Assembly (NCBI GenBank): GCA_951406725.2
Contig: OX597825.1
Location: forward strand, 28,458,001-28,522,000
DNA length: 64,000 nt
Direction: 5' to 3'
Source: Octopus vulgaris
Lineage: Eukaryota
Shown here: in pieces, positions 1-64,000 of the stretch
Position numbering within the stretch: the first letter of the stretch is position 1
How the letters are laid out: each line of letters begins with the position of its first letter
Made by a program: the position numbers and the translations under genes
The notes under the pieces: model-generated
Told to the model about the DNA's origin: nothing
The model's database searches: none
The model's input: only the letters and a program-made list of their open reading frames with translations

Positions 1-1628
1 GATACATCGTTCTTTGTGTCAATGCTTTTTACACTGAACCACACGCCTTTCCTTTTCAAATACGGAACTAATATTCCATTGTTGATATCATTTACAGCAA
101 GTTGAATGAAAGTATTAACGTGAGAATCAACGTTTTCTCCAGAACCACTGTAGTGAAGATCTCCAAGGTGGACAATTGAAATATTACCTCGGACACTAAA
201 TTCTGGCGTTGCATATCTAACGGTGCCATTGGTTGAAGATTGAAATATTAATTTTACCTTGTCAATTATCTCGCATATTGATAGGTATATTACAGACCTT
301 CCCCTTTTTAATTTACAAACAGTATCAGAAGATATACAAACTCCGCTTGGGATAGTAACATACATTAAAGGTTGATCTGAATCTGGCCCAGAATATATTC
401 GACGCCCATCGCTATCCAACGCAATAAGAGAAAATCCACCAGGGAGGTAGGTACTTACTGACATAGGGATTCTTTTCGTTTTGGGATCTCGAATTTTATT
501 CCATCTTTCCGCCACTATTTTATCGAGAACTAATTTCGATATATGCTGAGCCTCGATTCTCATTAAAGACGTGAAAACCATAGGCAATATATTCACCTGT
601 TTCGCACCTGTCACACGAGTGAACATAAAATATTTGCCATTATCTGAAACTTCATAGTGATCGAGATCGATATAGCAAGACGGACAAGATGGAATTCTAG
701 TAAAAGGATCACGTGCCATTGTCATCGTTATGTTTAACTGAAAATTATGGACTGCATCTAAAATTCGAATAGTTCGGAAAACAACTTTACCCTTCACCGC
801 TTGTTTACGAATAGACAAATCTCGTGTGTTGAGATGTAGCAAAAATTCATCAGCGTCCAGCGTAACATCTGTCATAGCTAAAATCATTTCTCTCTTTTTG
901 TCGGCATAGAATTTCTTATAGTCATACGGAACTGTTAATATAACAAATGCCACTGAATCAAGGCCATCTTCTACTCGTTTATTGCTGCTATCCCGAATTT
1001 CGACCTCAACATCGAAATTATGGTTCGCTTTTACTGATGCTGGAGGTTGTTTGGTAATTCTCAAATGATGTGCAGGAACTGTAATGCGTATTGGATTAGT
1101 ATCAGTTTTTGCGTGATATTTGGGGACCTCAATTCTCAGCACACGTGGGCCAGGCGGTAATATTGTATGTTCATGGTAGATCCAGTCAATTATTATTTCT
1201 CCTTTAAATATTTCAATGTTCAATTGAACTTTAGAATTCGGTGACCCACACCGGGTTTTCGCATATTCTCTATTTAATCTCTCCGGATAACCCAGCCACC
1301 ATGCTGTTTTCTGACACAATTTACCTCCACTCTCAGCCCAAGTATCTGAATGGGAACTGTTTTCGGCTGTTTTAACATCCAGTGATGTCACTTTTGCTGT
1401 TATGTTTGATGTTGGCTTCGGTGATAACAGAGCCCCGTTCTTTAATTGTATCACGGCAAATATTGGTCTGCTAATCGTTTGATTTAGTGGGACAGAATAG
1501 TAGAGATCCAGTGGATTAGAAGGAATGCTACTTGGGGGAAAATACTCTCCTTTAAACTTAATAATATATTTCCCATCCTTTAAAGGCAAAAAACTGAATA
1601 GTATAAAAAGCAAACGTAAAAGTTTCAT
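1..1628 (-). CDS. Receptor guanylyl cyclase paralog A1, 5' part only (runs off left edge): signal peptide, beta-rich modules, start of ANF-receptor-like domain
   Basis: Colinear with 29455-31082 at a constant 29454-bp offset. Manual translation from ATG 1628 gives MKLLRLLFILFSFLPLKDGKYIIKF...; no stop seen in the translated parts. Absent from the ORF track, presumably because no stop lies in the window. Confidence 0.88.
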   Translation of the reverse strand, partial: MKLLRLLFILFSFLPLKDGKYIIKFKGEYFPPSSIPSNPLDLYYSVPLNQTISRPIFAVIQLKNGALLSPKPTSNITAKVTSLDVKTAENSSHSDTWAESGGKLCQKTAWWLGYPERLNREYAKTRCGSPNSKVQLNIEIFKGEIIIDWIYHEHTILPPGPRVLRIEVPKYHAKTDTNPIRITVPAHHLRITKQPPASVKANHNFDVEVEIRDSSNKRVEDGLDSVAFVILTVPYDYKKFYADKKREMILAMTDVTLDADEFLLHLNTRDLSIRKQAVKGKVVFRTIRILDAVHNFQLNITMTMARDPFTRIPSCPSCYIDLDHYEVSDNGKYFMFTRVTGAKQVNILPMVFTSLMRIEAQHISKLVLDKIVAERWNKIRDPKTKRIPMSVSTYLPGGFSLIALDSDGRRIYSGPDSDQPLMYVTIPSGVCISSDTVCKLKRGRSVIYLSICEIIDKVKLIFQSSTNGTVRYATPEFSVRGNISIVHLGDLHYSGSGENVDSHVNTFIQLAVNDINNGILVPYLKRKGVWFSVKSIDTKNDV

Positions 1629-7629: not shown

Positions 7630-10600
7630 AATAATTTAAGGAACACCGAGGGACGTTTAAGGAAATAACACCGGGGGACGTTAAAGACGTGAGAACGATA
7701 AAACAAAGCTCCGAAATCTATCCACAAACATCGAAAACAAGGACATCGTATTGAGCCAAAGATTTACTAACAAAGGATTGGACTGTCCTCGAGTAAGTAA
7801 TACTCATTGAAATTTATTACTATTTTCGAAACGAAATGATGTATTTTGACTCGATATCATCTCCACCTCTAACACAACACATGTAAACATGCATGGAACA
7901 TTACGATCCATCAACACCAGATCATCCCCGACCCCAAACACCATGTACAAAGGAACTACGAAGAAATTAAATACCACCGATGTTATTCAACCGAAGAATA
8001 ACAATCGGGAGGTACGTACTTTAAACTTACAACACAAAATATACGAAAAACTACACGTGCAAAACAATGTGACAACAGAAATGAACGGACCGGTACCCTA
8101 CGAAAATGACGACCGTCAAAATAATGGGCCGGACGTTGTTCCTCATGTCCCGCAGATAAAACCCAGAAGACATAAATGGACACGTGAGGAATACATTTCT
8201 ATCCTACACGCATACTTCACAGCAGTGCTCTACCCAAAAAATGAAAACACAACAACACATACATATAAAATATGGAAGGAAAATAACATAAATATAGACT
8301 TGGATACAGCAATGAACCCTAATAAACTAGCTAACGTACGAAGATACATTCTCAACGCAAAAAAATATCAGAAATAGAAATAGAACATCTAGAAGAAAAA
8401 AATACACCAGGAAAATGTAGATAGAAGCCACACAACAATGCCCAATAATATAAACACTGAAACAGTAAAACACGAAGACAAACGTAACATTCCCAACAAA
8501 CACGATATAAACAAAAAGCAACAAACCCAGACCGTAAAGATGCATAATAATACACGACAAACAGCAAGCCAAAACACGGCAAACAAACATATAAATAATA
8601 AAGAAAGTGACACAAATCTAAAACCTGGAAACAGCGAAGGGGAGCCTAATGATTATGATAATATAAAAAGTAAAATAATCAAAGAACTGAAAACCACAGA
8701 GCTCAAAATGGACCACCGACCATACCTCCCAAAAATCAAATTAGGCGAAACAACAACACCAATTATAAACAGCATAATCCTAGCCGTCACGGAACTAATA
8801 GCCACTGAAACAAAAAGCGATATCACTAAGCTAAATGACTTAGTATACGCAGCAGCCACTGCAGTCACAAAAGAAGCTGGATACTCACTCAAACCCATCC
8901 AAACAGGAGTACCATCACCCAAACAAACCCTGTGGATAAATAACATTCAAAACAAAATACAAAAGATGAGAAAAGATCTGTCGATTCTTAATGAAATCAG
9001 TAGACAATCAACGCTACTGAGCAACAAAAAGAAAACAAAAATACTCCGCAAATATAACATCACAGAAAAAGATTTACCTGAGATAAAAGAAAAGCTGAAG
9101 CAATATTCCTTGCCAAAGCACAAAGGATCCGCCGGTACGAGAAACGCCAGCGCTTCTTTGAACAAAACAAAAAGTTCAACTCCAACCCCCAAAAGTTCTA
9201 CCAAAAACTTGTCAAAAATAAAATAGAAATCACTGCAGCACCAACGGCAGAAGAAGTGGAAGAATTCTGGAGAGAAATATGATCGGTGAACGAAAAAACA
9301 AAAAAAGGAGTATCAAAACAACAAACTCAGCATCTGAGCAACTTTGGACCCCCATAACAACTGAAGAGGTCACCCAGGCACTGCAAAGACTAAGCAACTG
9401 GAAGGCACCTGGGCATGACAAGATCCCCAAATTCTGGTTGAAATATCTAATAGGAATGCACAAAAAGCTGGCTGAAAACTTTAACAACATACTAGCAGAG
9501 CCAGAGACAATGCCTGAATGGCTCACGAAGGGGAAAACCATCTTAATTCCCAAATCAAATCAGATAGCAAAACCAGAAAACTACAGACCAATAACCAGTC
9601 TCCCTAAAATGTACAAGGCATTTACTGCAGTGATATCGCAAAGGTTGAACAAGCACCTGGACGAAAACAACCTGTTTCCAGAAGAGCAGAAAGGATGCCG
9701 CAAAGGCTCATATGGCTGTAAAGATCAACTAATGATTAATAAAGCCATAACTGAAGACAGCCACAGAAAGAAGAAAGGCCTCAGTATGGCCTGGATCGAC
9801 TACAAAAAGGCGTTTGATAGCATCCCCCACACATGGATCCTCGAAACACTAGCCATTAACAAAGTAGCACCAACAATTATAAAATTCATCGGGTACTCTA
9901 TGAATAAATGGCAAACAGTACTACAGCTCCAAACAAAAGAGGGACTCATGAAAGCCAAAGCCATCCCCATTAGAAGAGGAATATTCCAGGGAGACACGCT
10001 CTCTCCATTCCTTTTCTGCTTAGCACTGTCACCTCTATCTGATATGCTAAATAGAACTGGATGCGGATATAAATGTTACGGCAAAACGATCAGCTACCAT
10101 TTATATATGGATGACCTAAAACTATAGGCTGCAAATGACAAACAGCTGGAAACACTATTAAAGACAGTTCATGGATTTACCAAAGAAATAGATATGAAAT
10201 TTGGATTAGAAAAATGCGCCAAAGTAACCATGAAAAGAGGAAAACTAGTTAAGAGTAGCAGCATCACACTAGATAAAACCAATGAAATAAAATAATTAGA
10301 CCAAAGCCAAACTTACAAATACTTAGGAATCCATGAACTAGATAAGACACAAAACACACAAATGAAAGAGAAAATAAAAAAGAATATTATAGACAAGTTA
10401 GATCAATACTAAAAACAGAGCTCAATGCTAAAAACAAGATAATAGGTATTAACACTTTAGCTTTCCCAGTTATAAGTTACACCTACAATATCCTTAACTG
10501 GACACTAAATGAACTGACCAAAATAGATAGGAAAACAACAAAAATAATGACAGGATCTTGGATGCATCACCCAAAATCTGACATAGAAAGACTATATATA

Positions 10601-26018: not shown

Positions 26019-29000
26019 TCACTTAAATTTGTGTTTAGAAATTCTCAAAGCGAGAGATTGATCCGGCAATATTTTTTTGAAGGTGTCTTTGCCCCAAAGC
26101 CAGTAGGTTGTCATCATCCCTCGTCCTTTCACATTTATCTGGCCTCTTGATTCCAAGGCATATCCCCCTAATTCTTCAAGAATGCCAGCTGTAGTCTCAC
26201 TCACTTGAATTCGCAGGGCATAACAACTGGACTCCATCCTCGAAGCTGTGTTCACAGTGTCTCCGAACAAAAAATACCGAGGCATAAGTTTACCAACCAC
26301 ACCGCTAACCACTGGTCCTGAATGTATTCCAATTCGTAATTGTAAAGTAGATTTTGGCATATGTGGTATTTCAAACACCGTCACCGTTGACATCAGATCT
26401 AAAGCCATTGTTGCAATTTCTCCAGCATGGCGATTCTCATTCTTCTCTGGGAGACCACTCACCACCATATATGAGTCACTGATAGTTTCTACTTTATAAA
26501 CATCATAATCATCGAGAACTTTGTCGAATGCATTATAAATCTCATTCAAAAAGTCCACAACCTCGAATGCTTTACTCTCGTTGCAAATATTGGAGAAATT
26601 GGTGACATCGCTAAAGAATACACTGACACATTCAAAATACTCTGGATAAATTTTGTTTCCTTCTCTTATGTCGTTCGCTACTTTCCTTGGAAGCATTTCG
26701 CCAAGGAGCCTTTCTGCTTTAGCCTTGCTCTTTTTAAGTTCTTTTGTTCTTTGAATGACAACAACTTCTAAACTACTAGAATACGTCTCCAACCGATCAA
26801 TTAAATTATCTTTAAACTCACCTTTCCCTGGATGTATTTCTGTAAGCATTTGATGAATTGTACCGAACACAGGCCTCGCTAAAGGTTCATCCTGCCAACA
26901 TTGTGCAATCATTTTGGCAAATAACTCATGAGTGGTTGTATTTGTCGGGAAAAGTTCTTCTTTTATAATTGGTCTTGTGTAAAGCATGGCCTTTCCACCG
27001 ATATCTTCCCAAATTCGCCGTATTGCCTTGCTAGATTCATATGTTATTAAACCTATAATTTCTTTTACTGATAAATAATAGAGTTCGTATTTATAAGGGG
27101 GCGCTCTAGTAATAATTTCACTTGTGACTATTGCGAATGAATAAACATCACCAGGCTGTGTACCAGATTTGATTCCATCTAAATCTGAGACATTTTTTAA
27201 CAATTCAGGAGCTGTCCAGAATAGCTCTTTCTTGCTGTGAACTGATTTCGTAATCCTCTTCTCCCCAAAACGAATAATATTTGCCCCAAAACCAGTGAGG
27301 CGTACGGTCCACCGATTGTTTAATAAACAGTTTGAAGATTTCAGACGACCGTGGGACTTGATATCTGTTTTGTTGTGAATAAATTCCATACCACGACATA
27401 TGTCTTTCAGAAAGGAGAACCGGAATTCCCATCCAAGATCAACTGCTTCATTTTGTAAAATATCTTTTAGACTTCCCTTATCGAGGAATTCGACAAACAG
27501 ACTGACATTGGGTTTCACCAGACAAGCGCCACCATATTGAATAAGGTTCTCATGTCTAAGTTTAACCAAGCTAACCATTTCGAGAATAAGAGCTTCATTT
27601 TTGCTATCTATTGTACTACTGTTAATGAATTTTACATACCATTCTTGTCCTTTCCATCTGTATCTCTGAATCATGGATGCACATCTGCTGTTATAAGGAA
27701 ATGAGACATGGCTTGTCTCATATATTTCAACAGTTGACCAATCGACAATCCAGTCAGTATTAGCGAGAGCTGCTCGTTTTTGCCTGTGTTCTATTAATTT
27801 TGTAATAATGAAATACACGAAGAAGCTTGATATTAAAATAGCTGCAATAGTTAATATGATGTATCCGACATGCACATCACAGTATTTCCCTGTGTAAATC
27901 CATGTGTGACAACGACACTCAAACGGTTTGGAACATGTCCCATATTTGCATTTGGTGCAATTTGCCTTTTCGCAGTAGGGGCCAACATAACCCTCTTTAC
28001 ATATGCATTCTCTTGGTTCTATGCAATGACCATTGTCACAGCCACACTCCACAATATGACATTTTGCACCTTGGTACCCATCTTTGCATTTGCATTTGTC
28101 TTTTGAAATACACGTACCAGTATCGAAAATAGTTACATCCTCGGGGCTTACCAGTTTTCTCCCGCACGGCTTTTTACAAAAGAAAGGTGGTATGACCTTC
28201 TCAGTCCTCATTATCTTAACTGGAGGCCAACTTTCTCGGGGATTTCTAATCAATCTTTGTGTGATTATATCAATCATGCCAGAATAAGACCAATATCGGC
28301 GTAAGTTATATCGAGTAGAATGTGGTAGTGTGAGTGGAGCTTCAATGTCAAATCTTTGGTAATCTCCTTTTGCAGAATATGGGATCTCTAGTTGGGCAGT
28401 GTTGTTGATTTTTTGGAAGCACCTTATAAATTCTGTGACTCTTTCTTCACCTGAACCTGTCCGATTTGAACGAGGATTTATATGAGCTAAAGATCCGAAG
28501 TAACCAATACGGTTCCCATGTCTATCAAGTTGCAGATAAGAAGTCAAACCATGAATTTTAACTTTTCGTAATTCAGCAACTTGTTGTTCTCCAGTCGCTG
28601 TCGTTTGATGGCGGATGATTTGCGCCAGCATGGCTGCATAAAGATGCACAGCATCGTATCCAAGCCCCATTCTTGCACCAATATAGTTGGGTCTGTAGCT
28701 TACGCTTCCGCCTTTGTATATAGTTTTGTCGGCTGCAAACCAATTACCGAATATTCGAAACCAGTCAGATGAACTATAGCCGCTTATATTATATTGTTCA
28801 CTAAACAAATTTGTACCTGCAAATGCATGAGTGCATTTCACTGTACCATTGCATACTCCCTCATCATCAAATGGGAATTGCCTGGCATATTCACCAAATA
28901 AAACCCATTGAAAACCATGTAACGCAGAGATGCCAGTCAAATATGCATCATGGAATACATAAGGTTGAATAAACTTAGGCGCAAATAAAAATATTATCTT

Positions 29001-31082
29001 ACAACCTGAAGCGGCAGTATCTAACATTTCTGCCGTGAAATGCTTAGCAAACATACTTTTTTCATCTATATTCTTTAGAACCGGAAGGACAATATCTGCA
29101 ATCAATTTGATTCCATATTTATTCATATAAACGTAAAAGAGTGGGCTGACGTGAGTGTCGTGGTAACGCATTATTAATATTTGAAACCATTTCCGCTCTT
29201 TCGTAGCGAGAAGTACTGAGTTGATGAGAGAGTCTTCCGTCCAACAAATCCTATTGAAATATTTGTATCTTTGGATGCTGGAGAAATCACCTCCAATGTT
29301 AGCTATTGAAATAAATGGCAAACGTCCTTTCAGAAGCAATGGGTATACGGCTTCAGTGATCTCTAATGACACGCTACTGATCACTAAACGTATACTATCA
29401 TAACGAAGCAAATTAATTTCTGAAGTAAAATACATTAATTTTTTGTATGCAATCGATACATTGTTCTTGGTGTCCACGCTTTTTACACTGAACCACACGC
29501 CTTTCTTTTTCAAATACGGAACTAATATTCCATTGTTGATGTCATTTACAGCAAGTTGAATGAAAGTATTAACGTGAGAATCAACGTTTTCCCCAGACCC
29601 ACTGTAGTGAAGATCTCCAAAGTGGACAATTGAAACATTACCTCGAACAGTAAACTCTGGTGTGGTATATGAAATTTGTTTTTTACCGTGAGGGTATATC
29701 GTTAACTTTACTTTGTCAATTACCTCACATATTGATATATATATAATAGCTCTTCCTCTTTTTAACTTAGCATATTTATCAGATGATACACAAACATCAA
29801 CCGGATCTGTTAGAAAAAATAATGAACGATCAGAATCTGGCCCTGAATATATTCGATGATCACTGCTATCCAACGCAATAAGAGAAAATCCACCAGGGAT
29901 GAAGGAACTTAGTAATATAGGGATTCTTTTCGTTTTGGGATCTCGAATTTTATTCCATCTTTCTTTCACTTTTTCATCGAGAACTAATTTCGATATAAGC
30001 TGAACCTCGATGCTTATTAAAGACGTGAAAATCATAGGCAATATATTCACCTGTTTCGCACCTGTCACACGAGTGAACAGAAAATATTTACCATCATCTG
30101 AAATATGATAGTGATCAAAATCGATATAGCAAGACGGACAAGATGGTATTCTAGTAAAAGGATCACGTGCCATTGTCATCGTTAAATTTAACTGAAAATT
30201 ATGGACTGCATCTAAAATTCGAATCGTTCGGAAAACAACTTTACCCTTCACCGCTTGTTTACGAATAGACAAATCTCGTGTGTTGAGATGTAGCAAAAAT
30301 TCATCAGCGTCCAGCGTAACTTCTGTCATAGCTAAAATCATTTCTCTCTTTTTGTCGGCATAGAATTTCTTATAGTCATACGGAACTGTTAATATAACAA
30401 ATGCCACTGAATCAAGGCCATCTTCTACTCGTTTATTGCTGCTATCCCGAATTTCGACCTCAACATCGAAATTATGGTTCGCTTTTACTGATGCTGGAGG
30501 TTGTTTGGTAATTCTCAAATGATGTGCAGGAACTGTAATGCGTATTGGATTAGTATCAGTTTTTGCGTGATATTTGGGGACCTCAATTCTCAGCACTCGT
30601 GGGCCAGGCGGTAATATTGTATGTTCATGGTAGATCCAGTCAATTATTATTTCTCCTTTAAATATTTCAATGTTCAATTGAACTTTAGAATTCGGTGACC
30701 CACACCGGGTTTTCGCATATTCTCTATTTAATCTCTCCGGATAACCCAGCCACCATGCTGTTTTCTGACACAATTTACCTCCACTCTCAGCCCAAGTATC
30801 TGAATGGGAACTGTTTTCGGCTGTTTTAACATCCAGTGATGTCACTTTTGCTGTTATGTTTAATGTTGGTTTTGGTGTAAACAGAGTCCCGTTCTTAAAT
30901 TGTAACACGGCAATTATTGATTTGCTAATCGTTTGATTTAGTGGGACAGAATAGTAGAGATTTAATGGATTAGAAGGAATGCTACTTGGGGGGAAATGCT
31001 CTTCTTTAAACTTAATAATATATTTCCCATTATTTGAAGGCAAAAAATTGAATAATATAAAAAGTAAACGCAAAATTTTCAT
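26019..31082 (-). CDS. Intronless receptor guanylyl cyclase paralog A2 (~1687 aa): signal peptide, 3 beta-rich modules, ANF-receptor-like domain, 3 EGF-like repeats, TM, kinase-homology, coiled coil, cyclase
   Basis: Single 5.06-kb ORF. Likely start MKILRLLFILF (M57 of the tracked ORF). Motifs: LAVNDINN, GYDAV, C-rich EGF repeats, TM VGYIILTIAAILISSFFVYFII, HGRLKSSNC, WTAPE, FSDV, YKVETISD, GDTVNTASRMES. Confidence 0.95.
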   Translation of the reverse strand: MKILRLLFILFNFLPSNNGKYIIKFKEEHFPPSSIPSNPLNLYYSVPLNQTISKSIIAVLQFKNGTLFTPKPTLNITAKVTSLDVKTAENSSHSDTWAESGGKLCQKTAWWLGYPERLNREYAKTRCGSPNSKVQLNIEIFKGEIIIDWIYHEHTILPPGPRVLRIEVPKYHAKTDTNPIRITVPAHHLRITKQPPASVKANHNFDVEVEIRDSSNKRVEDGLDSVAFVILTVPYDYKKFYADKKREMILAMTEVTLDADEFLLHLNTRDLSIRKQAVKGKVVFRTIRILDAVHNFQLNLTMTMARDPFTRIPSCPSCYIDFDHYHISDDGKYFLFTRVTGAKQVNILPMIFTSLISIEVQLISKLVLDEKVKERWNKIRDPKTKRIPILLSSFIPGGFSLIALDSSDHRIYSGPDSDRSLFFLTDPVDVCVSSDKYAKLKRGRAIIYISICEVIDKVKLTIYPHGKKQISYTTPEFTVRGNVSIVHFGDLHYSGSGENVDSHVNTFIQLAVNDINNGILVPYLKKKGVWFSVKSVDTKNNVSIAYKKLMYFTSEINLLRYDSIRLVISSVSLEITEAVYPLLLKGRLPFISIANIGGDFSSIQRYKYFNRICWTEDSLINSVLLATKERKWFQILIMRYHDTHVSPLFYVYMNKYGIKLIADIVLPVLKNIDEKSMFAKHFTAEMLDTAASGCKIIFLFAPKFIQPYVFHDAYLTGISALHGFQWVLFGEYARQFPFDDEGVCNGTVKCTHAFAGTNLFSEQYNISGYSSSDWFRIFGNWFAADKTIYKGGSVSYRPNYIGARMGLGYDAVHLYAAMLAQIIRHQTTATGEQQVAELRKVKIHGLTSYLQLDRHGNRIGYFGSLAHINPRSNRTGSGEERVTEFIRCFQKINNTAQLEIPYSAKGDYQRFDIEAPLTLPHSTRYNLRRYWSYSGMIDIITQRLIRNPRESWPPVKIMRTEKVIPPFFCKKPCGRKLVSPEDVTIFDTGTCISKDKCKCKDGYQGAKCHIVECGCDNGHCIEPRECICKEGYVGPYCEKANCTKCKYGTCSKPFECRCHTWIYTGKYCDVHVGYIILTIAAILISSFFVYFIITKLIEHRQKRAALANTDWIVDWSTVEIYETSHVSFPYNSRCASMIQRYRWKGQEWYVKFINSSTIDSKNEALILEMVSLVKLRHENLIQYGGACLVKPNVSLFVEFLDKGSLKDILQNEAVDLGWEFRFSFLKDICRGMEFIHNKTDIKSHGRLKSSNCLLNNRWTVRLTGFGANIIRFGEKRITKSVHSKKELFWTAPELLKNVSDLDGIKSGTQPGDVYSFAIVTSEIITRAPPYKYELYYLSVKEIIGLITYESSKAIRRIWEDIGGKAMLYTRPIIKEELFPTNTTTHELFAKMIAQCWQDEPLARPVFGTIHQMLTEIHPGKGEFKDNLIDRLETYSSSLEVVVIQRTKELKKSKAKAERLLGEMLPRKVANDIREGNKIYPEYFECVSVFFSDVTNFSNICNESKAFEVVDFLNEIYNAFDKVLDDYDVYKVETISDSYMVVSGLPEKNENRHAGEIATMALDLMSTVTVFEIPHMPKSTLQLRIGIHSGPVVSGVVGKLMPRYFLFGDTVNTASRMESSCYALRIQVSETTAGILEELGGYALESRGQINVKGRGMMTTYWLWGKDTFKKILPDQSLALRISKHKFK

Positions 31083-31899
31083 ATTTCTTTTCGAAGCTTT
31101 GACTTGTGCTATTTTACAATTTCCGTTTATAGCAGGAATATATCTTCCGTTGGCGTTTAAAGAATGCCGCTTCTTTGGTAAATAGCAACAACGGCGTCTT
31201 TTCAAATCGATTAAATGAATGAAAATAAATTCAAAACCCTCCACGTCCATAGCTGCATGTACGAGCTGTATGTATATGACTGCATGTATGTGTCTGTATT
31301 ACTATACCTGTGCATGTGTGTATCTATGTGTGTGCATGTGCGTGTGTGTATCTGTGTGTGTTAATGCATGTGTGTGTGTGTGTGTGTGTGTGTGCTTGTG
31401 AGTCTGTATGTGTGTAAATGTAACAATGCTATAAATGGATAATTATGTCATTACCACGGAGACTTTTATGCTCTGGGCACAAAACGACAAATAATCATTT
31501 TATCCAATGCACCAAAGTGTCGTGAACATACATGGATGATATTGGTAATCCACGGCCTGAAATTCTTCCGGCATCGAATCGAATTTTTTAGTTGACATCA
31601 AATCAGATCTCACACAAATGTTTGCAAAAATTTTTTTCCGCGAGATACACTCTGCCAACGAAAATCTGATGACGTTAAAATGGAGTGTGGGTTAACTCTA
31701 TAAGCCAAAACAATCCAGTACAACTATCATACATGTAAATCTGTTAATATTTTCAAATTTTCAAGTCTTATGAAGTCCCAAATTTAGACAGATGATTTTT
31801 GCCCAAGGTAAACTCTGCTTCATTAATTATTGTTTGTATTTCTTACCTACGTATACCCTTGATGTATTAGAAGAAAATGTTGTGAGCCTTGTCTCTGTT

Positions 31900-38678: not shown

Positions 38679-39164
38679 AATGATGATGATGATGATAATG
38701 ATGATGATGATGATGGCGATGGTAGTGATGTTGTTGGTGATGGGTATGAAGAATTGGTTGTCATGCTAATCATGGAGTTAGCAGGTTTTGGTATGTGGGC
38801 ATTAGACGGTTGGACCGTTAGCAGGTCAGTAGCAGAAAGCAGTTATCGTTTAGTAGAATTGGAGAATATTAAGCTGATTATTGTAAGATGCTCCTTAACG
38901 AGGTGGTAGGATTTCGAAAAATGCTTTAATATAGATTCCACTTGTTTTGTTGTTCGATTGTCAAAAAGCTGGACAATTTCGGAAGCAACGTCACTGAGGC
39001 ATGACGCTTGTGTGGTGGGTTTTTTGTGAAAGGTCAAGCCAGCTGTTGAGTAGAATAACAATTTCACTCTCTGTTCAGAAAACTTTCTTTTGGACTATTT
39101 TGCTCATAGTAATAGTAGCTGCTGTCTTTTCTTTCGTTCGTTTTGCTAGTCAATAATTTAGGTG

Positions 39165-39740
39165 GATTAAACCACTTCCATCTCAGGTGTCTTCGGAACC
39201 TCCTTCACATCCGCTGGCAGGACAAAGTCCCAGACACGGATGTTCTGAAGCAGGCAGATCTCCCTAGCACCATCACAATCATGCGCAAGGCCCAGCTGAG
39301 ATTAGCGGGCCACGTCTCCCGCATGTTCGACACTCGCATCCCAAAACAGCTCTTCTACGGTGAACTCGGCCAGGGCAGGCGCAAAGTCGGAGGGCAGAAG
39401 AAGCGCTACAAGGATAGTCTCAAGGTCTCTCTAAAAGACTTCTCCATCGGAACAGAGACCTGGGAGACACTTGCTGCCAACCGCTCATCCTGGCGCAGCG
39501 CAATCACCGTGGGAGCAGGGACAGCCGAGGAGGGACGGATTCGGTCAGCGGAGCAGAAACGTCAGATGCGTAAAGCCAGAGCCGCCTGCACCAGTAGCAC
39601 GGCACCTACCCACTTCTGCCCCACCTGTGGGAGGGGCTTCCTTGCCCGGATTGGCCTCACCAGCCACCTCAGGTCTCATGGCGGAAGTTTCATCAGATGA
39701 TGTCAATTGGTCATCTTCGAACCGAAGGACGAACATTATT
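39165..39740 (+). mobile_element. 3' end of an RTE-clade LINE
   Basis: HLRCLRNLL-IRWQD, LRLAGHVSRM, PKQLFYGEL, GGQKKRYKD and terminal CPTC..HLRSH motifs; GC-rich relative to its flanks. Confidence 0.88.
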
Positions 39741-45147: not shown

Positions 45148-45487
45148 CTTGTTTCTTCTTTTGTGCATATAGATGAGATAAATATTCACGAAGAACCTTT
45201 CTTAATTTTTTCTTTTATCAGAGACGCTACTCTAAAACAATTTCATATGGAATTCAAATTATGAAAGAAGAAAATTAAAAAAATAATAAACGCTTATTAT
45301 CAGATCAAAAGTGAGTGTTTAACATATGAAGTTGCGTTTAAGAAAGACGTTGATAGATTTTTTGTTATTAGATTTATTTGTTTAATTGCACAGGCGCTCT
45401 GGCTAGCATTTAGTTTTTCATGTTGAAATAGAAAAATTACAATGCTTTTAAACGACAAATGATTATTCATGAAATATCCGATGAACT

Positions 45488-48400
45488 ATGACAATTGCAT
45501 GCCTCATTCTTATCTCTACTTGGATGTTTGTGACAGGACAATTGGAATTATCATTTCTACAATTTCACGAACCTCCCGCAATTATACCCGATGATCCTTC
45601 AAAGTTATACTATTCAGTGCCACTCAATCAAATGATCAGCAAACCGATCATTGTCGTTGCCGTTTATTCAAACGGGACACCTTTTTCTGAGGGAGAAGTC
45701 AATACGACGGCTACAATAGACAGCTATGCTGTTTCGCCATCTGGCGAGATTAATAACAAAGATACTTGGGCAGACAGTGGCGGCCAACTGTGTCAGAAAT
45801 CAGCATGGTGGTTGAATTATCCGGAGCGATATAACAGACATCTTGCGAAAACTCGTTGTCATACACCGCATTCTTCCATTCTAATGAAATCACGAATTTT
45901 TAATGGAAAACTCATATTTGATTGGATTTACCATAAACATACCATTGTACCTCCATCCATGCGAATGTTCAGGATCGAAATACCAGATTATAAAATATAC
46001 GTCGACTCTTTCCCAATATTTGTAACCAAACCTGCACACCGGTTAGTTGTAACGAAACCACCACCTGTAACAGTAATGGCTAATCACGATTTTGATGTTG
46101 AGGTTGAAATAAGAGATGAAGAAGGAAATACTCTCATAAATGGTCTTGATTCGGTAGCAATTGTGGAAATGACAATTCCTTACAATTATAAACGTTTCTA
46201 TGCTGACCCAGAGAGAGAAATGATGATTGATTACACTAAAATTCGAATGGATGGAGAGGATGTAATAATTGATTTTAAAACACGAGATATAATAATGCGT
46301 CAACAAGCAAATTATGGTAAGGCAAAATTTACTGGAGTTCGAATTTTAGACGTTACAGAAAATTTGCAACTAAATATTACTTTAACCATGGCAAGAGACC
46401 CATGGAGCAGAATTCCTGCTTGCTCAGAATGTTTCCTTGACATCGAACGTGCAAGACAGTTGTCCAGTGACAGAAAGTTTATTACTTTCCAACGATTAAC
46501 AACTGAGGAAGAGGAAAAGATTCTACCTGTTGTCTTCACGAATAATTTCTCAGTACATTATCAAATTCTGAATAAAGTTGATATGGACACCTCATCAAAA
46601 AGTATGTATTCTAAACTTAAAACTAATGAAAATGTTGTAGAGGTGCCTATTAGTTGTCCTCTACTTAACGGCTTAAGTATTTTTGCAATGGATATGAAAG
46701 AACGTCGGATCTATTCAGGTCCTCACTCCACATTACGCCTAAATATTAATACAATCCCAAAAGATATATGTTTGTCAAAGGACTACACTAGGAATATGTC
46801 AGAAGGAAAAGCGCTCGTATTTGTATCTATATGTGAGGTAGTCAACTCCGTCAAACTGATAATAACTTACGATGGTCCACCTACTGTTACTTACAGAACT
46901 CCAGCTTTTCGTATAATAGGAAACATTACAATTGGACATTTTGGTGACCTTCGATTTAGTGGTGATGGAAAGGAAATTGACTCACATATCAATTCTTTTA
47001 TACGATTCGCAATCAATGATGTTAATAATGGTATTATTGTCCCAGAATTAAGAAAGAAAGGATTGAAATTATATTTGAAGTCGTATAATATTCCAAACGA
47101 AAAATCTGCAACCTATAGAAAACTTGGGGATTTGGAAACTATTTCAACTAATATTCATTTGGTTATAAGTTCCATTCCAGGAAATGTTGCTAATGTTCTT
47201 AGTCCGTTCATAGTGAAGTTAAGGATACCTTTTATTTCGACGATCGATTCTACTAGAGAATACATCGATAAAGATATATACCCATTGTATAATAGTATAA
47301 GTTGGTCAGAGGAGGCGTTCTATAATTCAGTGTTTCAATGTGCTAAAGATAGGTTTTGGACTGACGTTGTAATCCTTCGATATCACGATATTAATTTAAC
47401 TGGTTTATTCTATTCTGTGGCTATCAAATACAAAATTAACTTACGCAATGAATTTGTCTTTGGGGCAGTAAAAGATTTAAAACTGAAGAACTTGTATGAC
47501 AGGAAGCTGAAATTATCGTTGGAAGCAGTGAAAAGAACTAACTTGAAAATAATCTTTCTGTTTGCTCCATTCCATATACAGCCAATCGTCTTTCGAGAAG
47601 CCTATCTTATGAACCTTTCTTCTCTGCATGGATTCCAATGGGTTTTAATGAAAAAATACGCGCGAGAGTTTCCATTTGAGAACCATTCGGTTTGTAACAA
47701 AAAATTAGAATGCACATTAGCTTTTACTGGAACCTACCTCTTTGATTCGACCTACAATGTATCGGGTTACCAAACAGATAGTTGGAAACGAGTTCTTAAT
47801 TATTATTTTAAAGAAGACCGTGTACTTTACAAAGGTGGAAGAGTTCGTTATAGATCCTTTGAAATAGGAGCGTTAATGGGATTGGGTTATGACGCCGTGC
47901 ACCTTTACGCTAAAGCGTTAGCCATACTTCTCAATAAACAACTAACACTTAACGGTGCGAAGGTTAATTGGCTCATGCGCAAGATAACTATACATGGACT
48001 AACAGATAAAGTATCTTTAAATGCATACGGTGATAGAATTGGTTATTTCGGTTATCTGGCCCAAGTTAACCCAATCCCACGTTGGCCATATTTGCCGAAA
48101 TCTAAAGTTATAACTTACGTAAAGTGTATTAAGAGATCGGAAGACGGTATTCAATTAGAAATACCTTATGAATCGAAAATACTTCCTCACAATAAAACTG
48201 CGGCACTGGTAGCATTTCCTGTCGGTAAGGTACATAACACTAGACAATACATATCTTTATCGGGGATGGTTAGTCTCAATACACAAAAAATGATGCCAAT
48301 AGAGGGTGAAGATTGGCCGCCAACCATTTTTATTCGGACAGAAAGTATAGTTCCACCATATTATTGCGTTCATGCGTGTGGTGAAAAGTTAAAAGACCCC

Positions 48401-50533
48401 GGTAATATCAATGTTTTTGATGGAGGAATATGTCGTCCAGATGACAAATGCGAATGCTTTGAAGGATTCGAAGGGAGGCATTGTCACACTGTTCAGTGCC
48501 ATTGTGCACACGGCCGTTGCAATAATGAAGGTTCTTGCATATGTAATCCTGGTTATACGGGTCCCTCTTGTGGAGCAGCAATTTGTGAGGATTGTAATTT
48601 TGGTGTATGTGTAAAACCAGGAGTATGTGAATGCACTACTATAGTACATTTCGGTGAAAATTGTGCTATTCATATTTCATCCATCATTGTTCCAATATTA
48701 TTTGCAGCAATTCTTCTCATTAGTATATCTTATGTCGTGGCAGGAATAACTAGCTCGAAGACGAAAAGTATAATCTATCAAGACTGGATGATTGATTGGG
48801 ACAACGTTACTGTACCTGAAAAATTAGGTATGGTAGGAGAATCCAAGGGAATAATTAACAAAACGGTTGCAGCTTATAGATGGGACAATGAGAACTGGTA
48901 TGTGAAAAAGATTAATAGTAAGACAATTCCTCCTGATGATAAAAAGATTATTTCAGACATGGTCAAGTTAACTAAAACTAGACATTATAATCTGATTCGA
49001 TACGGTGGATGCTGTTTGACTTATCCTAACGTCAGTTTGTTCATGGAAATTGCTGACAAGGGGAGTATAGCGGATGTACTTGCCAATGAAACATTTGAGA
49101 TCGGATGGGAATTTGGATTTTCATTTTTAAAAGATATATGTTGCGGAATGGAATATTTGCACGACAAATCTGAAATCAAAAGCCATGGACGTCTGAAATC
49201 TTCCAACTGCTTGGTTGATAAGCGCTGGACTGTACGTCTGTCAGGATTTGGTGCACCGTCTCTTCGTTATGGCAGCTACAGAATCCCAGAGTCTGAAGAA
49301 ATGTCTGATTTAAAAGATCTTTTTTGGACCGCACCCGAACTACTGAGGGATGACACAAATCTCGATGGAGTAAAGTCGGGCACACCGCAAGGAGATGTCT
49401 ATTCATTTGCTATCATTGCGTGTGAAATTGTGACGAAGGCAAAACCATACCATTACGAACTGAAACATTTAAGTGAAAAAAGCATTTTAGATCTCATTAA
49501 AGATTCACACTCACGGGCCAATGAAGATATACGACGTGTATGGGAGAGTATTGGTGGAGGTAAAATGATTTTTACAAGACCAATTTTAAGTGAAGATTTA
49601 TTACCAAACAGTAATCTATCTAAGAAGCTGTTTAAAAAAATGCTCGAAGAGTCTTGGAATGAGAAGGAATCTTCACGACCGACTTTTAATAAGCTTAGCA
49701 TCATTCTAAATCAAATGTACCCCATAAAAGGAGAACTTATAGATAAATTAATCCACCTCTTGGAAACTTATTCCAATAATTTAGAAATGGTTGTAATAGA
49801 AAGAACCAGAGAACTAGAAGAAAAAAAAGCTAAAGCTGAGCAGCTATTGGGCCAGATGTTGCCCCCGAAAGTAGCTTGTGAACTGAAACAAGTTGGTGAA
49901 GTGATACCGGAATTATTCGAAAATGCCACGGTATTCTTCAGTGATATCGTGAATTTTGGCCGAATATGTAAAGAAAGTAAACCAATGGAAATCGTTGATT
50001 TTTTAAATGAAGTTTATAAATTATTTGACTCAGTGGTGGACGGCTATGATGTTTATAAAGTGGAATCCATCAGCGATTCCTACATGGTAGTTAGTGGTAT
50101 TCCAGAAAAGAATGGTGATCGCCATGCAGGAGAAATTGCAACAATGGCTTTAGATCTGATGTCATATGTTACTCTACTCCATGTTCCCAACACGGAAAGT
50201 AATGTGCTACAATTACGAATTGGAATGCATTCCGGCCCGGTAGTAAGTGGCGTGGTGGGGAAACTATTGCCTAGATTTTGTCTATTCGGAGACACCGTCA
50301 ACACAGCTTCCAGAATGCAGTCTAGTTCTTATACCTTACACATTCAAGTGAGCGAGAATACTGCAGCAATTCTTGATTCTTTAGGCGGTTATAAATTAGA
50401 ATGTAGAGGGGAAAGAGAAGTAAGAGGTCGCGGATTAATGACAACGTACTGGCTGTGGGGTAAGGACACATTTATGAAAGAATTCCCTGATATATCCCTG
50501 GGAGTCCCTCTCTCACAACACAAATTCAAATAA
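45488..50533 (+). CDS. Intronless receptor guanylyl cyclase paralog B1 (1681 aa), same architecture as A2
   Basis: Single ORF with signal peptide MTIACLILISTWMFVTG, FAINDVNN, GYDAV, 3 EGF repeats, TM, HGRLKSSNC, FSDI, YKVESISD and PRFCLFGDTVNTASRM. AATAAA overlaps the stop (50529-50534). Confidence 0.95.
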   Translation: MTIACLILISTWMFVTGQLELSFLQFHEPPAIIPDDPSKLYYSVPLNQMISKPIIVVAVYSNGTPFSEGEVNTTATIDSYAVSPSGEINNKDTWADSGGQLCQKSAWWLNYPERYNRHLAKTRCHTPHSSILMKSRIFNGKLIFDWIYHKHTIVPPSMRMFRIEIPDYKIYVDSFPIFVTKPAHRLVVTKPPPVTVMANHDFDVEVEIRDEEGNTLINGLDSVAIVEMTIPYNYKRFYADPEREMMIDYTKIRMDGEDVIIDFKTRDIIMRQQANYGKAKFTGVRILDVTENLQLNITLTMARDPWSRIPACSECFLDIERARQLSSDRKFITFQRLTTEEEEKILPVVFTNNFSVHYQILNKVDMDTSSKSMYSKLKTNENVVEVPISCPLLNGLSIFAMDMKERRIYSGPHSTLRLNINTIPKDICLSKDYTRNMSEGKALVFVSICEVVNSVKLIITYDGPPTVTYRTPAFRIIGNITIGHFGDLRFSGDGKEIDSHINSFIRFAINDVNNGIIVPELRKKGLKLYLKSYNIPNEKSATYRKLGDLETISTNIHLVISSIPGNVANVLSPFIVKLRIPFISTIDSTREYIDKDIYPLYNSISWSEEAFYNSVFQCAKDRFWTDVVILRYHDINLTGLFYSVAIKYKINLRNEFVFGAVKDLKLKNLYDRKLKLSLEAVKRTNLKIIFLFAPFHIQPIVFREAYLMNLSSLHGFQWVLMKKYAREFPFENHSVCNKKLECTLAFTGTYLFDSTYNVSGYQTDSWKRVLNYYFKEDRVLYKGGRVRYRSFEIGALMGLGYDAVHLYAKALAILLNKQLTLNGAKVNWLMRKITIHGLTDKVSLNAYGDRIGYFGYLAQVNPIPRWPYLPKSKVITYVKCIKRSEDGIQLEIPYESKILPHNKTAALVAFPVGKVHNTRQYISLSGMVSLNTQKMMPIEGEDWPPTIFIRTESIVPPYYCVHACGEKLKDPGNINVFDGGICRPDDKCECFEGFEGRHCHTVQCHCAHGRCNNEGSCICNPGYTGPSCGAAICEDCNFGVCVKPGVCECTTIVHFGENCAIHISSIIVPILFAAILLISISYVVAGITSSKTKSIIYQDWMIDWDNVTVPEKLGMVGESKGIINKTVAAYRWDNENWYVKKINSKTIPPDDKKIISDMVKLTKTRHYNLIRYGGCCLTYPNVSLFMEIADKGSIADVLANETFEIGWEFGFSFLKDICCGMEYLHDKSEIKSHGRLKSSNCLVDKRWTVRLSGFGAPSLRYGSYRIPESEEMSDLKDLFWTAPELLRDDTNLDGVKSGTPQGDVYSFAIIACEIVTKAKPYHYELKHLSEKSILDLIKDSHSRANEDIRRVWESIGGGKMIFTRPILSEDLLPNSNLSKKLFKKMLEESWNEKESSRPTFNKLSIILNQMYPIKGELIDKLIHLLETYSNNLEMVVIERTRELEEKKAKAEQLLGQMLPPKVACELKQVGEVIPELFENATVFFSDIVNFGRICKESKPMEIVDFLNEVYKLFDSVVDGYDVYKVESISDSYMVVSGIPEKNGDRHAGEIATMALDLMSYVTLLHVPNTESNVLQLRIGMHSGPVVSGVVGKLLPRFCLFGDTVNTASRMQSSSYTLHIQVSENTAAILDSLGGYKLECRGEREVRGRGLMTTYWLWGKDTFMKEFPDISLGVPLSQHKFK

Positions 50534-58163: not shown

Positions 58164-64000
<5,837 letters not shown>

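What the first reader, a model, noticed from the sequence alone, without database searches (positions are those of the whole stretch)
29640..31030. Unassigned ~480-aa N-terminal region with an internal three-fold, Ig-like repeat pattern
Seen: A and B share strong blocks (LYYSVPLNQxISK, DTWAxSGGxLCQKxAWWLxYPERxNR, DWIYHxHTI, PPxxVxANHxFDVEVEIRD, GLDSVA, TMARDPxxRIPxCxxC). A pattern recurs in about three units: V-x-I-x-D..(R)I/V..G-x-DS......G-x-A/V-x-F/I (VEIRDSSNKRVEDGLDS..KGKVVF; IALDSSDHRIYSGPDS..RGRAII; weaker in unit 1, KNGT..KGEIII). Inference: three tandem beta-sandwich modules with Cys-paired inserts fused ahead of the ligand-binding clamshell, which I do not recognise from any characterised rGC.
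Basis: inference. Interest (0 to 1): 0.78.

Follow-up and report, generated by a model that had tools for sequence, protein, structure and literature searches.

The report
Triple Ig-rod receptor guanylyl cyclase family
This octopus cell-surface signalling receptor carries, ahead of its usual ligand-binding clamshell, three predicted antibody-like domains of a type repeated in large bacterial proteins; the same design occurs in snails, clams and a centipede, our searches found no description of it, and in cephalopods it likely works as a two-subunit receptor with one shared and many variable partners.

Summary
Window 31019-29637 (-) encodes residues 78-538 of an intronless 1,687-aa receptor guanylyl cyclase (signal peptide, module, ANF clamshell, EGFs, one membrane helix, kinase-homology and cyclase domains). 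The module has no Pfam, NCBIfam or PDB sequence match. AlphaFold2 models it confidently (pLDDT 86; domain 1 alone 94.5) as three tandem Ig-like beta-sandwiches with large inserts, and the domains match each other above shuffled and decoy controls. Domain 2 belongs to a ~110-aa repeat found 2-34 times in large, largely bacterial proteins (HHalign 97%). The whole architecture recurs in Argonauta, Haliotis, Gigantopelta, Sinanodonta and the centipede Strigamia, so the fusion is old, not an octopus novelty. This genome has 12 loci: 11 in one tandem array and one on another chromosome. Within the array, domains 1-2 are homogenised while domain 3 varies, and the clamshell and EGFs also vary among the A copies and one B copy. 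The solitary gene has lost one half of the cyclase active site; the array genes drift in the other half, which suggests heterodimers. Ligand, tissue, pairing and the module's role are untested. New variant of a known receptor kind.

The parts
26019..31082 (-). Copy A: intronless receptor guanylyl cyclase, 1,687 aa from the likely start M57 (ORF open from 31250)
31023..31082 (-). Likely signal peptide (MKILRLLFILFNFL...)
   Evidence: inferred from sequence and from the matching start of paralogues; no predictor run
30534..31019 (-). D1, Ig-like beta-sandwich (aa 78-239) with a Cys161/Cys183 insert and 4 N-glycosylation sequons
   Evidence: AF2 pLDDT 94.5; VIA Z 8.4 to p65 RHD, 8.0 to Velvet, 7.4 to InvE
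30006..30533 (-). D2, Ig-like beta-sandwich (aa 240-415) with two inserts, the second holding a CxxC seen only in cephalopod-type members; member of the ~110-aa bacterial-type repeat
   Evidence: VIA Z 9.5 Velvet, 9.4 p65 RHD, rmsd 2.7; HHalign 96.9% over 87 columns to the repeat profile
29637..30005 (-). D3, Ig-like beta-sandwich (aa 416-538) with Cys487/Cys508; the most variable module domain among paralogues
   Evidence: VIA Z 8.7 Runt, 7.6 filamin domain, 9.4 gp210 Ig
28131..29636 (-). ANF-receptor clamshell (ligand-binding fold) and linker
   Evidence: PF01094 E 3e-12, aa 564-915
27870..28124 (-). EGF-like stalk (about three units)
   Evidence: PF25024/PF21700
27804..27860 (-). Single transmembrane helix
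   Evidence: only hydropathy peak above 2.0
26844..27647 (-). Kinase-homology domain
   Evidence: PF07714 E 4e-31; HGRLKS motif
26097..26648 (-). Guanylyl cyclase domain; this copy has Phe at the guanine-specificity Cys
   Evidence: PF00211 E 2e-61
177..1565 (-). Same module in a second A-type copy (gene runs off the window start; intact 1,705-codon frame in the genome)
45551..46927 (+). Same module in B-type copy 45485-50533 (46% identical)
60133..61509 (+). Same module in a second B-type copy (runs off the window end; intact frame, second metal Asp replaced by Ala)

Best explanation
The region is the outermost part of an old, apparently undescribed family of receptor guanylyl cyclases: three predicted tandem Ig-like beta-sandwiches of a bacterial-type repeat, placed ahead of the clamshell, where domains 1-2 likely act as a constant binding or assembly arm and domain 3 with the clamshell likely sets ligand specificity. 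SHOWN: domain order, three same-fold domains (as models), kinship of D2 with the repeat, presence across molluscs and a centipede, the 11+1 gene layout, the mosaic of constant and variable segments, and the pattern of active-site residues. INFERRED: the module projects from the membrane-distal lobe; binding of an extracellular, probably macromolecular or surface-bound ligand to D3 plus clamshell is relayed through the EGF stalk, membrane helix and kinase-homology domain to switch on cGMP synthesis; in cephalopods the active enzyme is a heterodimer in which the single C18-type subunit gives the metal- and phosphate-binding half and an array subunit gives the Cys/Asn/Arg/Lys half, so one shared subunit could serve many specificity subunits.
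For: Fold: AF2 pLDDT 86, pTM 0.79 for the module, 94.5/0.89 for D1. D1 and D2 each align end to end with the same single domains (6ggr_A 19/20-186, 4n6r_A 20/21-159/160), D1 and D3 each with Runt 68/69-171/175; three-domain matches are FdeC, filamin rod and invasin. Repeat kinship: 123 of the best 150 HMM hits among 1.84 billion proteins are multi-repeat proteins, holding 1,225 units, 2-34 each; repeat profile vs D2 96.9% over 87 columns, vs D3 score 21-24 over 79 columns, against shuffles up to 14.2 and decoys up to 11.3; 13 bacterial genome loci. Age: module plus ANF, EGF and kinase (and cyclase where complete) in Argonauta, Haliotis, Gigantopelta, Sinanodonta, Strigamia; module and intracellular trees recover the same main clades. 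Constant vs variable: three A copies are 99-100% identical in DNA over codons 78-277 but about 60-77% over the divergent stretches of clamshell and EGFs; six B copies fall into D3 types 77-83% alike between 97-100% flanks; D3 dN/dS 0.46-1.20 vs 0.30-0.52 for the kinase domain in the 6 within-type pairs; distant members are mostly closer to copy A in D1 and D2 than in D3 and ANF. Half sites (27 cyclases; roles from PMC2576301 and PMC3591389, passages): 4 of 4 C-type keep DIVGFT, GD and Arg but lose Cys, Asn, Arg, Lys; 18 of 18 A/B/E-type keep Asn and Arg (17 Cys) but all change the P-loop Gly and the Gly before the second Asp, and 4 lose that Asp; 2 of 2 gastropod proteins keep both halves.
Against: No ligand, tissue or activity data. 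Homogenisation by gene conversion can be mechanistic, not selected, and the D3 ratios were not tested against 1. D1's sequence link to the repeat is weak (score 15.8-18.4, prob. under 3%). Fold Z-scores of 8-9.5 are shared by many unrelated Ig-like domains. 14 of 18 A/B/E-type cyclases keep both metal aspartates, so they may be active homodimers, and the C-type gene could be a decoy or regulator. Two further members (P0017, P0193) are degenerate in both halves. The repeat proteins were picked by their match to the start of D2, so that part of the match is circular. In C. elegans the ODR-1 ectodomain is dispensable (PMC5225109, passages), so an ectodomain need not be the sensor.
Confidence: 0.5

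Rival explanations
1. The module is an adhesion or recognition arm that binds a partner on another cell or surface (as FUS1/GEX2 in gamete contact, or invasin-type adhesins), and the receptor reports cell contact, for example in gametes or epithelia.
For: The repeat profile's only PDB sequence hit under E 0.01 is FUS1p (9qs0, E 3.4e-5; its role as a gamete adhesion protein is recalled); whole-module fold matches are adhesins and S-layer proteins; atlas neighbours carry Big_1, invasin D3 and GEX2 labels (low shares, module scores under 0.9); NCBI names some copies 'speract receptor-like'.
Against: The FUS1 link is through the bacterial profile, not the octopus sequence; automatic names rest on the cyclase; no tissue data.
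Confidence: 0.22
2. The module is a passive, glycosylated spacer or folding and trafficking element; ligand recognition rests on the clamshell alone and the receptors act as ordinary homodimers.
For: Ig-like rods are often spacers (established knowledge); 5 sequons and 3 Cys pairs; 14 of 18 array-type cyclases keep both metal aspartates; both gastropod proteins have a full active site.
Against: A spacer would normally lie between the binding domain and the membrane, where the EGFs already are; D1-D2 are more conserved than the clamshell, with conserved surface inserts; D3 varies as a cassette.
Confidence: 0.2
3. The domains descend from Rel/Velvet/Runt-type DNA-binding domains and bind an extracellular nucleic acid or other polyanion.
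For: Best single-domain fold matches for all three domains are p65 RHD, Velvet and Runt (Z 8.0-9.5).
Against: No sequence match to these families; adhesin, macroglobulin, filamin and gp210 domains score within about 1-2 Z; the clear sequence relatives are bacterial repeats; long inserts at like positions can raise the score.
Confidence: 0.05
4. The fusion or the repeat is an artefact of assembly or of reading patterns into noise.
For: NCBI gene models in this array are chimeras of neighbouring copies, so the region is hard to annotate; D1-D2 sequence similarity is weak.
Against: One uninterrupted frame in 7 intact loci of this genome; same architecture in independent species; controls; a contig of run X1 bridges the D3-clamshell junction (29527-29905).
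Confidence: 0.02

Closest known systems
Receptor guanylyl cyclases (NPR-A/GC-A, PDB 9bcv; GC-C, 8fx4; sea urchin speract-pathway and nematode GCY receptors)
   Same: ANF-fold clamshell, one membrane helix, kinase-homology domain, cyclase domain; lineage-specific expansion as in nematodes and oyster (PMC1435932, PMC4883820, passages).
   Different: An extra 462-aa three-domain module at the N-terminus and an EGF stalk; the general rGC layout in PMC1435932 and PMC5225109 (passages) has neither. Ligand unknown.
Heterodimeric cyclases: soluble GC alpha/beta and C. elegans DAF-11/ODR-1
   Same: Each subunit gives part of one active site (PMC3591389, PMC5225109, passages); the C18-type subunit has exactly the alpha-type half.
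   Different: Most array subunits still keep both metal aspartates; pairing untested; here one putative common subunit faces 11 loci; the split appears only in the cephalopod-type clade, as gastropod members keep both halves.
Bacterial tandem Ig-like repeat near Big_1 / invasin D3 / SMCHD1 Ig-6 (PF26198) / GEX2-FUS1 / filamin
   Same: D2 aligns over 87 columns (96.9%), including the A..L....QP start, the D..GN.V..G.DS motif and the G...F strand.
   Different: The animal domains carry long inserts and Cys pairs; no named Pfam or NCBIfam family is reached; PF26198 labels only 10-40% of the top atlas clusters; the bacterial proteins hold up to 34 units and no cyclase was seen in the 9 scanned.
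Rel homology (N-terminal), Velvet and Runt domains
   Same: Closest solved single-domain folds (Z 8.0-9.5, rmsd 2.6-2.8 A, 96-111 residues).
   Different: Nuclear DNA-binding proteins, 8-17% identity, no sequence match; the module is extracellular.

Membership tests
Receptor guanylyl cyclase | Extracellular ANF-fold domain | tested here: met
   PF01094 E 3e-12, 46.7 bits vs cut-off 25.4
Receptor guanylyl cyclase | Signal peptide and single transmembrane helix | tested here: met
   One hydropathy peak, aa 1131-1149; signal peptide judged by eye and by paralogue starts only
Receptor guanylyl cyclase | Kinase-homology domain followed by class III cyclase domain | tested here: met
Receptor guanylyl cyclase | Full set of catalytic and guanine-specificity residues in one chain | tested here: inconclusive
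   Copy A keeps Asp, Asp, Arg, Glu, Asn, Arg, Lys but has Phe for Cys and an altered P-loop; gastropod members are canonical
Receptor guanylyl cyclase | Ligand-regulated cGMP synthesis | not testable with these tools
   needs assay
Tandem Ig-like repeat (Big_1/invasin/filamin/SMCHD1/GEX2-FUS1 neighbourhood) | Ig-like beta-sandwich fold in each unit | tested here: met
   (predicted models)
Tandem Ig-like repeat (Big_1/invasin/filamin/SMCHD1/GEX2-FUS1 neighbourhood) | Sequence kinship of the units to the bacterial-type repeat | tested here: met
   D2 clear (96.9%), D3 weak but over 79 columns and above controls, D1 marginal
Named Pfam Ig families (Big_1, Invasin_D3, Filamin, Ig_GEX2_N) | Score at the family's curated cut-off | tested here: not met
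   0 of 11 members match any such family
Ig_SMCHD1_6th (PF26198) | Score at the family's curated cut-off | not testable with these tools
   seen only as an atlas cluster label; it did not appear in the Pfam scans and may post-date that copy
Rel homology / Velvet / Runt DNA-binding domains | Shared fold | tested here: met
Rel homology / Velvet / Runt DNA-binding domains | Sequence membership and nuclear location | tested here: not met
   no Pfam or PDB sequence match; lies N-terminal to the only membrane helix, after a likely signal peptide
Obligate heterodimeric cyclase (sGC alpha/beta, DAF-11/ODR-1 type) | One subunit lacks the Cys/Asn/Arg/Lys half | tested here: met
   4 of 4 C-type proteins
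Obligate heterodimeric cyclase (sGC alpha/beta, DAF-11/ODR-1 type) | Partner lacks the metal-binding half | tested here: inconclusive
   P-loop and pre-Asp Gly changed in 18 of 18, second Asp lost in only 4 of 18
Obligate heterodimeric cyclase (sGC alpha/beta, DAF-11/ODR-1 type) | Co-expression, physical pairing, activity only together | not testable with these tools
   needs experiment

The most novel reading that the evidence does not exclude
An ancient animal receptor-cyclase family with a bacterial-adhesin-type Ig triple has, in cephalopods, become a combinatorial receptor system: one common subunit carrying half of the active site pairs with any of an array of intronless partners whose docking arm (D1-D2) and cyclase are kept uniform by gene conversion while D3, clamshell and EGFs diversify to read different extracellular ligands.
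Probability: 0.33. Interest if true: 0.82.

Novelty: new variant of a known kind. Interest (0 to 1): 0.62.

Why it matters
Receptor guanylyl cyclases are known from a few ectodomain designs, and obligate heterodimers have one established case (DAF-11/ODR-1; PMC5225109, passages). This adds a design shared by at least three mollusc classes and a centipede, defines a three-unit Ig-like module with no family model, and links it to a large unnamed bacterial repeat. The 11+1 layout with complementary active-site halves gives a direct test for a common-subunit receptor repertoire in cephalopods, whose expanded signalling families are of wide interest.

Tried and rejected
Pfam, NCBIfam and PDB sequence searches of the module: nothing. 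Atlas on the module: best score 0.88, a lead only. Foldseek on D1 alone: no match at E<=0.001. Complex prediction of the copy-A module with the C18-type module: no verdict (score 0.00, alignments not used), no evidence either way. Expression: no RNA holder listed; contigs of 4 of the 24 listed runs (X1, X4, X5, X6) cover the module, but none is on record as RNA and no silent stretch was laid. Stand-alone or differently fused forms: two further genome searches found no locus beyond those (lower bounds); both 'longer' protein searches returned only ANF-EGF-kinase receptors (16 and 2 hits); shorter proteins were not searched separately, and the short HMM hits look like gene fragments but this was not shown. 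Horizontal transfer from bacteria: neither shown nor excluded; multi-repeat proteins rank high because repeats add up, related Ig domains exist in eukaryotes, and no tree of the units was built. 'Octopus-specific fusion': rejected. Literature: 10 searches gave no paper on this architecture; most subscription papers and all supplements were unseen, so a mention in a genome-paper supplement is possible. PMC6878697 (passages) had nothing relevant.
Full report
Setting. The window is octopus DNA (G000:C12:28458001-28522000; proteins that NCBI names Octopus vulgaris lie on contigs of the same lengths). It holds four copies of a long intronless gene: A' (3-1664, -, cut), A (26019-31250, -), B (45485-50533, +) and B' (60067-63999, +, cut). 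Pfam on copy A gives ANF_receptor 564-915, EGF-like 1043-1127, kinase 1202-1469 and guanylate cyclase 1535-1718; there is one membrane helix, 1131-1149. The likely start is M57 (31082), followed by a hydrophobic leader. The finding is residues 78-538.

Observation. Cut at the recurring linkers into D1 (78-239), D2 (240-415) and D3 (416-538), the three units match each other weakly but above controls: 0 of 60 shuffles reached any pair with the first alignment; with a deeper alignment D2-D3 reached 85% probability and D1-D3 46%, while D1-D2 stayed at 4%; 8 decoy slices from the clamshell, EGF and intracellular parts scored lower.

Structure. AlphaFold2 on 11 sequences gives a nearly all-beta model, pLDDT 86.1, pTM 0.79; D1 alone on 22 sequences gives 94.5 and 0.89. 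The Foldseek rows shown are chains of tandem Ig-like domains (complement and macroglobulin, S-layer, invasin, gp210). In the wide VIA search D2 aligns with Velvet VosA (Z 9.5, rmsd 2.7, 109 residues) and p65 RHD (9.4, 2.7, 106), D3 with Runt (8.7, 2.6, 96) and filamin domains (7.5-7.6), and the whole module with FdeC, filamin rod and invasin over 276-282 residues at high rmsd. D1 alone hits the same single domains end to end: p65 RHD 8.4, VosA 8.0, InvE 7.4, Runt 7.3. So there are three domains of one Ig-like fold with long inserts. These Z-scores are middling, so the fold gives no function.

Where the unit comes from. An HMM of the module against 1.84 billion representatives gave 322 hits at E<=0.001; of the best 150, 27 are family-like and 123 are proteins that match the D1/D2 junction many times. 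A profile built only from those 123 finds 1,225 units of about 110 aa, 2-34 per protein. It aligns with D2 over 87 columns (96.9%), with D3 over 79 columns (score 21, shuffles up to 13.8) and barely with D1 (18.4, shuffles up to 11); as an HMM it also scores D3 of the two bivalve proteins (13.7 and 9.8 bits) and the end of D1 in four unnamed members (5.8-11.8 bits). The match to the start of D2 is circular, since it selected the proteins; the rest is not. Of 10 repeat proteins looked up, 1 names an organism (Bdellovibrionales); a genome scan with one of them gave 13 loci, all bacterial, including Planctomycetota, Gemmatimonadota and Myxococcota members. The atlas places that protein among clusters partly labelled SMCHD1 Ig-6, Big_1, invasin D3 and GEX2 (scores up to 0.93), and a repeat profile hits FUS1p in the PDB (E 3.4e-5). 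The unit thus belongs to an unnamed branch near these families. Whether animals took it from bacteria is open.

Range. The module sits in front of ANF, EGF and kinase domains in every long hit: Octopus, Argonauta, Haliotis, Gigantopelta and an unnamed JGI protein with a longer EGF stalk, Sinanodonta and the centipede Strigamia. Of 20 distant proteins looked up, 6 name an organism (Sinanodonta, Gigantopelta, Tegillarca twice, Strigamia twice). Trees of the module and of the intracellular part (Strigamia as root; P0013 left out of both, P0021 out of the intracellular tree) recover the same main groups. The fusion therefore likely predates the mollusc-arthropod split, resting on one arthropod species. 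The D1 Cys pair is kept widely (first Cys invariant in 22 of 22), the D3 pair in the molluscs shown, the D2 CxxC only in cephalopod-type proteins.

The array. The genome search gave 13 matches at 12 loci: 11 within about 175 kb of C12 and one on C18. Three A-type and three B-type frames and the C18 frame are intact; five B-type loci are frameshifted, deleted or partial (some breaks could be assembly errors). Two more searches added none. The paralogues are mosaics. The three A copies are 99-100% identical in DNA over codons 78-277 and 97-99% over the cyclase, but about 60-77% over long parts of the clamshell and the EGFs; among six B copies D3 comes in types 77-83% alike between near-identical flanks, and one copy also differs in the first clamshell lobe and EGFs. 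Synonymous distances follow the same pattern (A copies: D1-D2 0.05-0.09, D3 0.22-0.43, EGF 0.9-1.9), which points to gene conversion; D3 dN/dS is 0.46-1.20 against 0.30-0.52 for the kinase domain in the six within-type pairs, not tested for significance. Two Argonauta paralogues also have near-identical modules and diverged intracellular parts, which argues against an artefact of this one assembly.

Catalytic halves. In class III cyclases one monomer gives two metal aspartates, a phosphate arginine and the P-loop, the other gives Glu, Cys, Asn, Arg and Lys (PMC2576301 and PMC3591389, passages). Of 27 cyclase domains examined, 4 C18-type keep the first half unchanged and lose Cys, Asn, Arg and Lys (checked against NPR-A); 18 array-type keep Asn and Arg (17 keep Cys; copy A has Phe) but all alter the P-loop glycine and the glycine before the second Asp, and 4 lose that Asp; 2 gastropod proteins keep everything; 2 unnamed proteins are degenerate in both halves; the Strigamia model is gapped and also lacks Asn and Arg. 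The C18 protein cannot form a normal active site alone (follows from the cited structures). A heterodimer with an array subunit would, as in soluble GC and DAF-11/ODR-1 (PMC5225109, passages). That the P-loop changes impair array homodimers is inferred, not shown.

Mechanism. Best reading (0.5): a three-domain arm on the distal lobe of the clamshell, with D1-D2 constant and used for assembly or for a shared partner, D3 and clamshell variable and setting specificity, signalling to a cyclase that in cephalopods is completed by a common subunit. Rivals: a cell-contact arm of the FUS1/adhesin type (0.22), a passive spacer on ordinary homodimers (0.2), a nucleic-acid-binding relic (0.05), artefact (0.02). 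The structural and evolutionary description is much firmer (about 0.9) than the functional one.

What is known. Reviews of rGCs give the plain ECD-TM-KHD-GC layout (PMC1435932, PMC5225109, passages); an oyster kinome paper notes 23 rGCs without, in the passages seen, describing ectodomains (PMC4883820). Ten searches (listings and abstract starts) found no account of this architecture; subscription papers and supplements were not seen. Databases call the proteins 'speract receptor-like', 'ANP receptor 1-like', 'gcy-4-like' or uncharacterised. Verdict: real, a new variant of a known receptor kind; interest 0.62.

Noticed in passing
L023:803-5860 (G000:C18) and P0011, P0012, P0014: Single C18-type paralogue keeps the metal-binding half of the cyclase site but lacks Cys, Asn, Arg and Lys; complementary drift in the array genes suggests heterodimeric receptor cyclases in cephalopods.
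   Followed up: partly
window 26097-26648 (-): Copy A has Phe in place of the guanine-specificity Cys (RYFLFG), unlike its two sister A copies; activity or specificity may be altered.
   Followed up: partly
window 60067-63999 (+), L016-L020: Several B copies, including the intact B' copy, have Ala for the second metal Asp (ETISASY).
   Followed up: partly
G000:C12:28.435-28.614 Mb (L014-L022): Tandem array of 11 loci with sharp gene-conversion mosaics; five B-type loci are frameshifted, deleted or partial (L017-L021).
   Followed up: partly
P0002, P0004, P0005: Database gene models of this array (1,866-2,485 aa) join the tail of one copy to the next copy through false introns; the annotation is wrong.
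   Followed up: yes
P0017, P0192, P0193: An unnamed 48,168-base record length is shared by an apparently active member (P0192) and one degenerate in both catalytic halves (P0017); P0193 is degenerate likewise: a possible decoy subfamily.
   Followed up: no
P0019-P0162; L024-L036: A large ~110-aa bacterial Ig-like repeat (up to 34 units per protein) has no proper Pfam or NCBIfam model and links by profile to FUS1p; its fold neighbourhood may include Rel/Velvet domains.
   Followed up: partly
all octopus loci vs P0022, P0034, P0045, P0121, P0129: Octopus genes are single long frames whereas several distant hits stop or run into unrelated sequence like exon fragments; a retroposed origin of the cephalopod genes is possible.
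   Followed up: no
window 8393-10127 (+) and 39143-39700 (-): Frames that look like reverse-transcriptase retroelement remnants (recalled motifs, not searched); the rest of the spacers is rich in simple repeats.
   Followed up: no
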